From Eledone cirrhosa (lineage: Eukaryota): a DNA stretch of 64,000 bases. The DNA lies in contig OZ024741.1 of NCBI GenBank assembly GCA_964016885.1, positions 252,712,001 through 252,776,000 on the forward strand, in the 5' to 3' direction. A program made the position numbers and the translations under genes. Positions 18,069 to 21,000 of this stretch are shown piece by piece (positions within the stretch are counted from its first letter, which is position 1; every line of letters starts with the position of its first letter). The notes below the pieces were generated by a model. That model saw only the letters and a program-made list of their open reading frames with translations, was not told the origin of the DNA and did not search any database.

Positions 18069-21000
18069 TGAAAATATTGAAGAGATAAGACACTTTGCCA
18101 TTCTTCTCTGCTAAAATGTACCAGTAGAGCTGATTCAAATTTTCCCAGCCAGCCATCCACCTAATCTACGAAGGTATTTTAGCCTACATATTGTCGTTAA
18201 TATTATGATGTTCCCTGCTGTATTAGCGTTAAATTTTCCCTGCTGTATTAGCGATAAATTTTCGAGGGTTTCTCTTAGTAGCTTTTTCATGTCGTTAATA
18301 TTATGATGTTCCCTGCTGTATTAGCGTTAAATTTTCCCTGCTGTATTAGCGATAAATTTTCGAGGGTCTCTCTTAGTAGCTTTTTCATGTCGTTAATATT
18401 ATGATGTTCCCTGCTGTATTAGCGTTAAATTTTCCCTGCTGTATTAGCGATAAATTTTCGAGGGTTTCTCTTAGTAGCTTTTTTCATGACGTTATTATTG
18501 TTAATTTTACTGATGTAGTATTAACTTATTAACTTGGATATTTACCATGCGGTATTCTAATCCTATTGTATCTCTTTCAGTTATTTACCATGCGACCCTC
18601 AGTTCCTACCCCCCCCCCCCTCCATGCACTTCTTTAAGGCTTACTACCCTGTCTTTAACCTAATTCATTCAATCTGAAAATATTGAAGAGATAAGACACT
18701 TTGCCATTCTTCTCTGCTAAAATGTACCAGTAGAGCTGATTCAAATTTTCCCAGCCAGCCATCCACCTAATCTACGAAGGTATTTTAGCCTACATATTGT
18801 CGTTAATATTATGATGTTCCCTGCTGTATTAGCGTTAAATTTTCCCTGCTGTATTAGCGATAAATTTTCGAGGGTTTCTCTTAGTAGCTTTTTCATGTCG
18901 TTAATATTATGATGTTCCCTGCTGTATTAGCGTTAAATTTTCCCTGCTGTATTAGCGATAAATTTTCGAGGGTCTCTCTTAGTAGCTTTTTCATGTCGTT
19001 AATATTATGATGTTCCCTGCTGTATTAGCGTTAAATTTTCCCTGCTGTATTAGCGATAAATTTTCGAGGGTTTCTCTTAGTAGCTTTTTTCATGACGTTA
19101 TTATTGTTAATTTTACTGATGTAGTATTAACTTATTAACTTGGATATTTACCATGCGGTATTCTAATCCTATTGTATCTCTTTCAGTTATTTACCATGCG
19201 ACCCTCAGTTCCTACCCCCCCCCCCCTCTATGCACTTCTTTAAGGCTTACTACCCTGTCTTTAACCTAATTCATTCAATCTGAAAATATTGAAGAGATAA
19301 GACACTTTGCCATTCTTCTCTGCTAAAATGTACCAGTAGAGCTGATTCAAATTTTCCCAGCCAGCCATCCACCTAATCTACGAAGGTATTTTAGCCTACA
19401 TATTGTCGTTAATATTATGATGTTCCCTGCTGTATTAGCGTTAAATTTTCCCTGCTGTATTAGCGATAAATTTTCGAGGGTTTCTCTTAGTAGCTTTTTC
19501 ATGTCGTTAATATTATGATGTTCCCTGCTGTATTAGCGTTAAATTTTCCCTGCTGTATTAGCGATAAATTTTCGAGGGTCTCTCTTAGTAGCTTTTTCAT
19601 GTCGTTAATATTATGATGTTCCCTGCTGTATTAGCGTTAAATTTTCCCTGCTGTATTAGCGATAAATTTTCGAGGGTTTCTCTTAGTAGCTTTTTTCATG
19701 ACGTTATTATTGTTAATTTTACTGATGTAGTATTAACTTATTAACTTGGATATTTACCATGCGGTATTCTAATCCTATTGTATCTCTTTCAGTTATTTAC
19801 CATGCGACCCTCAGTTCCTACCCCCCCCCCCCTCTATGCACTTCTTTAAGGCTTACTACCCTGTCTTTAACCTAATTCATTCAATCTGAAAATATTGAAG
19901 AGATAAGACACTTTGCCATTCTTCTCTGCTAAAATGTACCAGTAGAGCTGATTCAAATTTTCCCAGCCAGCCATCCACCTAATCTACGAAGGTATTTTAG
20001 CCTACATATTGTCGTTAATATTATGATGTTCCCTGCTGTATTAGCGTTAAATTTTCCCTGCTGTATTAGCGATAAATTTTCGAGGGTTTCTCTTAGTAGC
20101 TTTTTCATGTCGTTAATATTATGATGTTCCCTGCTGTATTAGCGTTAAATTTTCCCTGCTGTATTAGCGATAAATTTTCGAGGGTCTCTCTTAGTAGCTT
20201 TTTCATGTCGTTAATATTATGATGTTCCCTGCTGTATTAGCGTTAAATTTTCCCTGCTGTATTAGCGATAAATTTTCGAGGGTTTCTCTTAGTAGCTTTT
20301 TTCATGACGTTATTATTGTTAATTTTACTGATGTAGTATTAACTTATTAACTTGGATATTTACCATGCGGTATTCTAATCCTATTGTATCTCTTTCAGTT
20401 ATTTACCATGCGACCCTCAGTTCCTACCCCCCCCCCCTCTATGCACTTCTTTAAGGCTTACTACCCTGTCTTTAACCTAATTCATTCAATCTGAAAATAT
20501 TGAAGAGATAAGACACTTTGCCATTCTTCTCTGCTAAAATGTACCAGTAGAGCTGATTCAAATTTTCCCAGCCAGCCATCCACCTAATCTACGAAGGTAT
20601 TTTAGCCTACATATTGTCGTTAATATTATGATGTTCCCTGCTGTATTAGCGTTAAATTTTCCCTGCTGTATTAGCGATAAATTTTCGAGGGTTTCTCTTA
20701 GTAGCTTTTTCATGTCGTTAATATTATGATGTTCCCTGCTGTATTAGCGTTAAATTTTCCCTGCTGTATTAGCGATAAATTTTCGAGGGTCTCTCTTAGT
20801 AGCTTTTTCATGTCGTTAATATTATGATGTTCCCTGCTGTATTAGCGTTAAATTTTCCCTGCTGTATTAGCGATAAATTTTCGAGGGTTTCTCTTAGTAG
20901 CTTTTTTCATGACGTTATTATTGTTAATTTTACTGATGTAGTATTAACTTATTAACTTGGATATTTACCATGCGGTATTCTAATCCTATTGTATCTCTTT

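What the first reader, a model, noticed from the sequence alone, without database searches (positions are those of the whole stretch)
18174..18580. Candidate spliceosomal intron inside each monomer; the last monomer specifically lacks the acceptor
Seen: donor AAG|GTATTT (18174), branch-like TTCTAAT (18555-18561) and acceptor TCTCTTTCAG (18580) enclose the 3x98-bp block (407 nt). The terminal monomer lacks exactly the 43-bp segment holding branch and acceptor, while a further acceptor CTGTCCTTCTAG (32684) lies 72 nt before the ORF ATG. Inference: splicing from any monomer donor to 32684 would give a short-leader mRNA, while unspliced RNA would transmit the array. Back-splicing from the donor of unit n+1 to the acceptor of unit n could give ~200-nt circles. 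Retained introns are known in Penelope elements but are unusual for LINEs.
Basis: inference. Interest (0 to 1): 0.72.

Follow-up and report, generated by a model that had tools for sequence, protein, structure and literature searches.

The report
Jumping gene with stacked promoter repeats
An intact jumping gene carries 24 near-identical front-end repeats, each a likely promoter followed by intron-like splice signals, but no spliced form was seen, so the repeats likely serve as spare promoters and the proposed intron remains unproven.

Summary
The array heads an intact single-ORF EN-RT LINE of RTE type.

A (TA)n insertion junction in another run starts at exactly its +1. The array therefore most likely works like mouse L1 promoter monomers, with the donor closing a 113-nt first exon.

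Splicing is unproven. No spliced joint was listed among 236 contigs from 4 runs (2% threshold), and none of these runs is on record as RNA. 'Specifically lacks the acceptor' is overstated: the 43-bp segment lies between 13-bp direct repeats, and the terminal unit also lacks an unrelated 8-bp duplication. Splicing would leave 5 upstream ATGs.

Precedents exist in human L1 SpIREs and the Penelope 5' intron. Verdict: new variant of a known kind.

The parts
17913..18069 (.). (TA)n target microsatellite at the 5' junction; a target-site duplication cannot be resolved in it
18070..32023 (+). 23 internal monomers of 605-611 bp, identical but for C-run length (11-17) and one substitution; the first starts at +10 of the predicted promoter
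18174..18580 (+). candidate 407-nt intron of monomer 1 (donor, 3x98-bp block, branch-like motif, pyrimidine tract, AG); use not shown
18192..18499 (+). 3.1 x 98-bp internal repeat; the 98-bp unit is also tandem in runs X1, X2, X5, X6
18581..18779 (+). candidate 199-nt exon (198-204 across units) holding the C run and the whole predicted core promoter, -86 to +113
18665..18699 (+). first of 23 Inr (+1 = 18667) plus DPE (+28 to +32) sites with T+17, G+19, G+24; the last has +1 = 32015
   Evidence: (TA)n loose end before 32015 in X2
31883..31938 (+). 13-bp direct repeat (31883, 31926) bounding the 43-bp segment with branch and acceptor that the terminal unit lacks
32024..32510 (+). terminal monomer: identical to internal units for 458 nt, lacks the 8-bp duplication and the 43-bp segment; donor GT at 32128
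32511..32756 (+). unique C-rich leader (tether-like): CTAAC at 32613 and 32617, pyrimidine run, candidate acceptor AG ending 32684 (557-nt candidate intron from 32128), 4 upstream ATGs after the acceptor
32757..35876 (+). intact single ORF, 1039 aa from the first Met: apurinic-type endonuclease, reverse transcriptase, PHD finger
35877..36182 (+). 3' UTR ending in (TGA)8 and then (TA)n; shared with dispersed short copies in the window

Best explanation
The array is the 5' end of an intact single-ORF LINE, and each 606-bp monomer is a likely RNA polymerase II promoter (Inr plus DPE) whose likely first exon ends at a splice-donor motif that is predicted to be used only in a minority of transcripts. 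Transcription would start at +1 of any monomer, so a new copy would lose everything upstream of that start, and the downstream monomers would supply whole spare promoters, as mouse L1 monomers are thought to do. Unspliced RNA is the likely template, since genomic copies keep the interval. The terminal unit likely differs through slippage between 13-bp repeats, as an old family trait. The 24 near-identical copies likely come from a very recent expansion, probably in place. Shown: motifs, geometry, ORF, both monomer types in another organism's run. Inferred: promoter activity, the level of splicing, the mode of expansion.
For: Inr+T17+G19+G24+DPE occurs at 23 of 23 junctions and nowhere else on either strand of the 64 kb; 4 of 20,000 shuffles; Inr+DPE alone 37 of 5000. 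The +17/+19/+24 biases and strict spacing are from PMC4180977 (passages); a DPE in Drosophila LINEs is in PMC1636488 (passages). 5' junctions cluster at the predicted start: +1 ((TA)n, X2), +16 (X2) and +10 (this copy), with one at 32113 (X5); each is a single contig and 7 of 15 loose ends were shown. No joint 32127 to 31925 was listed among 236 contigs of 4 runs, though the 98-bp go-back joint was caught in all 4. X1 holds both the acceptor type (depth 35.5) and the terminal type (27.7), which suggests short arrays there. Mouse L1 has monomers plus tether, ORF-proximal subtypes that differ, and one 50-monomer promoter (PMC9022269, PMC6454616 passages). Human L1 5'-UTR splicing is rare, about 2% of full-length copies (PMC5860796).
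Against: There is no RNA evidence of any kind, for promoter or splicing. The Inr and DPE consensus comes from Drosophila and is recalled in its exact form; I found no test of it in a mollusc. I looked for the Inr after seeing the X2 junction. A plain Inr+DPE match also occurs at 4 places outside the array. Penelope shows that mostly spliced RNA can coexist with intron-keeping DNA copies (PMC2377424), so missing spliced copies do not prove rare splicing. The 2% threshold sits at the SpIRE level, and contigs drop rare variants. The laid runs differ from the window at fixed sites, so they are relatives and not this genome. In X1 and X5 the block 32115-32175 around the donor shows no difference while exon 1 varies, which fits selection on the donor.
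Confidence: 0.5

Rival explanations
1. Penelope-like regulated intron: most transcripts are spliced (32128 to 32684, and each 407-nt interval) to make the translated mRNA, while unspliced RNA is the template that is copied.
For: The donor is 113 nt after a predicted start. The leader has a branch, pyrimidine run and 107-nt AG-free stretch (156 of 5000). Splicing cuts upstream ATGs from 17 to 5. The donor block is invariant in X1 and X5. Penelope has a 75-bp intron 46 bp after its start, mostly spliced, needed for reporter expression and kept in DNA (PMC2377424 passages).
Against: No junction was seen. Cis-preference, shown for L1 (PMC5860796) and assumed here, would copy the translated RNA and give spliced copies. 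The donor lacks the +5 G (consensus recalled). Five upstream ATGs remain, two of them in frames that overlap the main start.
Confidence: 0.2
2. The splice motifs are chance features of T/C-rich promoter DNA and are never used; the array is only a promoter array.
For: Loose motif sets arise in 4-14% of shuffles (80 and 287 of 2000). The leader is 39% C and 12% G, so an AG-free stretch is cheap. The 43-bp difference has a slippage signature. 0 of 236 contigs had a listed splice joint.
Against: The strict set arises in 4 of 2000 shuffles and on the sense strand only. There are two separate acceptor-like sites, and the donor sits where a first-exon donor would.
Confidence: 0.22
3. Back-splicing makes about 200-nt circles that have a function or that drive growth of the array.
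For: Each acceptor-to-donor unit is 198-204 nt and could in principle circularise.
Against: The flanking introns share no inverted match above 8 nt. A circle would lack the 98-bp block and so cannot template 606-bp monomers. No 199-bp-period form was listed in contigs.
Confidence: 0.05
4. The array is an independent satellite or an assembly artefact that merely abuts the LINE.
For: Near-zero divergence over 14 kb; no read evidence for 24 copies at this locus.
Against: The terminal unit runs straight into the leader and ORF. Monomer-to-monomer continuity (X5, X1), a monomer-to-leader loose end (X2) and (TA)n 5' junctions occur in other organisms. The exact copy number could still be wrong.
Confidence: 0.03

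Closest known systems
Mouse L1Md A/Gf/Tf monomer promoters and rat L1 ~650-bp monomers (PMC9022269, PMC6454616, PMC5381506; passages seen)
   Same: Tandem 5' monomers, a unique tether before the ORF, variable copy number with rare very long arrays, a distinct ORF-proximal monomer, and 5' truncation near the start site.
   Different: Here the element is a single-ORF RTE-type LINE; the monomer is AT-rich (about 36% GC) with an Inr-DPE consensus, not a CpG/YY1 promoter, and it contains splice motifs. Promoter activity is untested here.
Human L1 intra-5'UTR splicing and SpIREs (PMC5860796; abstract, section 7, first part of the discussion)
   Same: A donor about 100 nt after the start, several downstream acceptors in the 5' UTR, and mostly unspliced genomic copies.
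   Different: Splicing is proven there and not here. SpIREs lose promoter sequence, whereas a spliced monomer here would keep the whole predicted core promoter (-86 to +113) and lose only the 98-bp block region.
Penelope of Drosophila virilis (PMC2377424; passages)
   Same: An Inr/DPE-type internal promoter in a tandem arrangement, with a promoter-proximal intron kept in DNA copies.
   Different: Penelope has a GIY-YIG endonuclease and a pseudo-LTR derived from its 3' UTR; this element has an apurinic-type endonuclease and repeats of its own 5' end.
Drosophila jockey, Doc, F, G, I internal Inr-DPE promoters (PMC1636488, PMC4180977; passages)
   Same: Inr at +1, DPE near +28, T+17, G+19, G+24.
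   Different: Those are single copies at the 5' end as far as I recall, not tandem monomers.
Octopus vulgaris RTE-2_OV (PMC9115989; passages, first part of one supplement)
   Same: Single-ORF RTE-type LINE with a microsatellite tail and a 5' UTR of several hundred nt.
   Different: 1109 aa with a C2H2 finger there, 1039 aa with a PHD finger here. One published primer has no match in the window at up to 3 mismatches. The words 'splic', 'intron' and 'tandem' occur 0 times in its main text.

Membership tests
RTE-clade LINE | single ORF with apurinic-type endonuclease and RT, no ORF1 (definition recalled) | tested here: met
   EN 33-267, RT 558-762; no ORF of 150 aa or more in the array or leader
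RTE-clade LINE | 3' tail of short tandem repeats instead of poly(A) | tested here: met
   (TGA)8 at 36158-36182; microsatellites called common in RTE in PMC9115989
RTE-clade LINE | RT groups with named RTE references in a tree | not tested
   no labelled references on hand; the best 82 hits carry no informative name
RTE-2_OV | 1109-aa ORF, C2H2 finger, published primer sites | tested here: not met
   1039 aa, PHD finger; 1 primer tried, 0 matches
L1Md-type monomer promoter (works like) | tandem 5' monomers plus tether before the ORF | tested here: met
L1Md-type monomer promoter (works like) | each monomer has promoter activity and a start site | tested here: inconclusive
   consensus and junction clustering only; no RNA or reporter data
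L1 clade (membership) | two ORFs, poly(A) tail | tested here: not met
   single ORF, (TGA)n tail
U2-type spliceosomal intron | GT donor, branch motif, pyrimidine tract, AG in order on the sense strand | tested here: met
U2-type spliceosomal intron | exon-exon junction in RNA | not testable with these tools
SpIRE-like spliced retrocopies | genomic copies with the precise junction | tested here: inconclusive
   no such joint listed in 236 contigs at a 2% threshold; the junction to 32685 could show only as a loose end, and 7 of 15 were displayed; no genome held
Penelope-like element | GIY-YIG endonuclease | tested here: not met
   Pfam gives Exo_endo_phos, RVT_1 and PHD only
Back-spliced circular RNA | complementary repeats in flanking introns (common driver, recalled) | tested here: not met
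   longest inverted match 8 nt
Back-spliced circular RNA | RNase R-resistant closed species | not testable with these tools
   needs bench work
LINEs with a 5' self-cleaving ribozyme (recalled for some RTEs) | ribozyme in the 5' UTR | tested here: not met
   Rfam at E up to 1 on 31400-36300: 11 matches, all on the TA microsatellite; families outside Rfam would be missed

The most novel reading that the evidence does not exclude
An RTE-type LINE has converged on both the mouse-L1 monomer promoter and the Penelope retained intron. Each monomer is a promoter, first exon and intron. Splicing sorts the RNA into a translated form and an unspliced template, the acceptor-less terminal unit routes the last donor to the leader acceptor, and spliced retrocopies would stay alive as 199-bp mini-promoter arrays instead of being dead ends like SpIREs.
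Probability: 0.2. Interest if true: 0.72.

Novelty: new variant of a known kind. Interest (0 to 1): 0.45.

Why it matters
How tandem LINE promoters are kept and regrown is still open in mouse (PMC6454616). A second, unrelated case in an invertebrate single-ORF LINE, with a sharply predicted start site and a diagnostic terminal unit, gives a clean test system. If the intron is spliced efficiently, an apurinic-endonuclease LINE would be keeping an intron through retrotransposition, which questions strict cis-preference. If it is not, the finding is a neat but ordinary promoter array. I found no paper describing such monomers in an RTE element in 3 searches (listings only), which cover an incomplete library.

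Tried and rejected
No whole genome is held, so the retrocopy search in this genome could not be run. 4 of the 24 runs were laid, on 31845-32240 only. No reads were laid on the terminal monomer, leader or ORF, so the junction to 32685, the monomer-to-ORF depth ratio and the 5' ends in organisms C-F stay open. Whether X2 and X5 are RNA or DNA is unknown.

The monomer motif had 0 matches in metagenome contigs. Of 79 related loci, 2 reach the ORF start (L001, L037); neither has the Inr-DPE pattern in its first 700 nt, and the only blastn hit to the 5' region among the 79 was a 19-nt match. They are distant (37-44% identity) and uninformative. Folding 18480-18800 gave z = -0.28, so I dropped the idea that the acceptor is hidden in a special stem. 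The bacterial promoter scan is irrelevant to a eukaryote. Earlier-finding look-ups near this place and by sequence gave nothing. One search printed the leader branch sites with a wrong offset; one search has the right ones.

Of the octopus paper's supplements I saw only part 1 of 13 of one file (insertion calls, no sequence); two large files are unreadable and could hold the transcriptome. Rejected: the 43-bp loss as evidence of design; the junction and divergent RT-PCR tests for circles; circles as the source of the array.

Full report
1. What is there. The finding lies in the first of 24 head-to-tail monomers that run from 18070 to about 32510, directly after a (TA)n tract. The 23 internal units are 605-611 bp. 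With the C run masked, 22 are identical and 1 has a single substitution. A 246-nt unique leader follows, then one intact ORF of 1039 aa from ATG 32757 with endonuclease, reverse transcriptase and PHD domains, a 3' UTR, (TGA)8 and (TA)n. This is the anatomy of an RTE-type LINE (definition recalled; no tree was built). The host is likely an octopus, going by earlier AI notes on this genome; I did not test that.

2. The observation. The donor motif occurs in 24 of 24 units, branch and acceptor in 23 of 24. The interval is always 407 nt, and the second acceptor is 72 nt before the ATG. Shuffles of one monomer gave the motif set in 287, 80 and 4 of 2000 cases for loose, branch-added and strict patterns; the reverse strand had none, and other window tiles scored 1, 1 and 0 of 78. 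The patterns were post hoc, so this is modest enrichment.

The terminal unit does lack the 43-bp segment. That segment is bounded by a perfect 13-bp direct repeat, and the terminal unit also lacks an 8-bp duplication just upstream, so slippage explains both without appeal to splicing. The difference is not peculiar to this locus: run X1 has a contig with the same skip (depth 27.7) beside the acceptor type (35.5).

3. What the monomer most likely is. In run X2 one contig joins (TA)n to the monomer at exactly 32015. That base is the A of an Inr consensus, with a DPE consensus at +28 to +32 and T+17, G+19, G+24, the three extra biases of DPE promoters named in PMC4180977 (passages). The full pattern occurs 23 times in the window, once per junction, nowhere else on either strand, and in 4 of 20,000 shuffles. 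Drosophila LINEs use this promoter type (PMC1636488, passages). Other 5' junctions lie at +10 (this copy), +16 (X2) and 32113 (X5). Each is one contig, 7 of 15 loose ends were shown, and I looked for the Inr after seeing the junction.

Inference: each monomer is a promoter. A new insertion loses what lies upstream of the start it used, so inner monomers are spare whole promoters. This matches mouse L1, with monomers, tether, distinct ORF-proximal subtypes and a 50-monomer extreme (PMC9022269 and PMC6454616, passages), and rat L1 has monomers of about 650 bp (PMC5381506, passages). The X1 depth ratio of 1.3:1 suggests about 2-3 monomers per element there (rough: contig mean depths). The 24-mer here is then probably a recent expansion. 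An earlier unchecked AI note reports the same pattern at another locus (e1-8673048).

4. Is the intron used? The donor closes a 113-nt first exon, and the acceptor lies 85-91 nt before the next start, so each 198-204-nt exon would hold a whole core promoter. Direct evidence is missing. Of 24 runs listed, 1 is on record as RNA, with word share 0.07. In the 4 runs laid (5, 16, 214 and 1 contigs; two probably DNA, two of unknown kind) no joint from 32127 back to 31925 was listed at a 2% threshold. The 98-bp go-back joint, of the same kind, was caught in all four. None of the 7 displayed loose ends lies at the donor. The 7 listed substitutions spare the GT, AG and branch, but so few changes say little. 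The block 32115-32175 around the donor is unchanged in X1 and X5 and is nearly unchanged in a divergent X2 subfamily. That could reflect selection on the donor or a recombination boundary.

The missing spliced copies argue against efficient splicing if the element copies the RNA it is translated from. That is shown for L1 (PMC5860796, discussion part 1), where spliced copies are about 2% of full-length ones (section 7). It is not decisive: Penelope transcripts are mostly spliced, yet its DNA copies keep the intron (PMC2377424, passages). The terminal monomer and leader were not covered by reads, so the junction to 32685 is almost untested.

5. Splicing of the terminal unit would cut upstream ATGs from 17 to 5, two of them in frames that overlap the main start (counted from 32024). 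The leader becomes shorter but not clean. Splicing from any donor straight to 32684 would skip up to 23 acceptors. In a homogeneous array the back-splice junction has the same letters as the linear one, and divergent primers amplify linear tandem RNA and DNA, so the proposed tests cannot show circles. The flanking introns have no inverted match above 8 nt, and a 199-nt circle cannot template a 606-bp unit.

6. Verdict. Best explanation (0.5): a tandem Inr-DPE promoter array with a real but minor splice donor, SpIRE-like. Rivals: motifs never used (0.22), Penelope-like regulated intron (0.2), functional circles (0.05), unrelated satellite or artefact (0.03). It works like L1Md monomers but is not an L1. 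It is not a Penelope element and not RTE-2_OV. Three literature searches (listings only) showed no description of 5' monomer arrays or introns in RTE elements. PMC13282606 (passages) counts 13 recently active RTE families in O. vulgaris, and the passages I saw say nothing of their 5' ends. New variant of a known kind; interest 0.45.

Noticed in passing
window 32757-35876, residues 778-821: A PHD finger sits just after the RT domain; its cysteines and histidine are invariant in the 35-sequence alignment, so it marks a widespread LINE subgroup.
   Followed up: partly
window 32713-32760: A 15-codon upstream ORF ends in a stop that overlaps the main ATG, which could allow termination-reinitiation (mechanism recalled).
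   Followed up: no
window 10839-12634: Broken, 5'-truncated relative of the same LINE group, 54-68% amino-acid identity.
   Followed up: partly
window 35904-36185: The 3' UTR matches 14 segments at about 12 other places in the window (71-95% identity), like a SINE sharing the tail. By eye a similar motif lies upstream of the ORF in L001 (about 215-265).
   Followed up: no
It may be the same family, but sequence look-ups returned nothing.
   Followed up: partly
runs X1, X2, X5 at 31880 and 32115: Loose ends and depth steps point to a second subfamily with a different first exon but the same donor block.
   Followed up: no
window 32509-32697: The leader has degenerate internal repeats; the sequence at the 32684 acceptor resembles the end of the terminal monomer (17 nt, 76%).
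   Followed up: no
window 41493-44497 and 37549-38256: Two more young arrays: 48 bp x 62 (96% matches) and 22 bp x 32 (95%).
   Followed up: no
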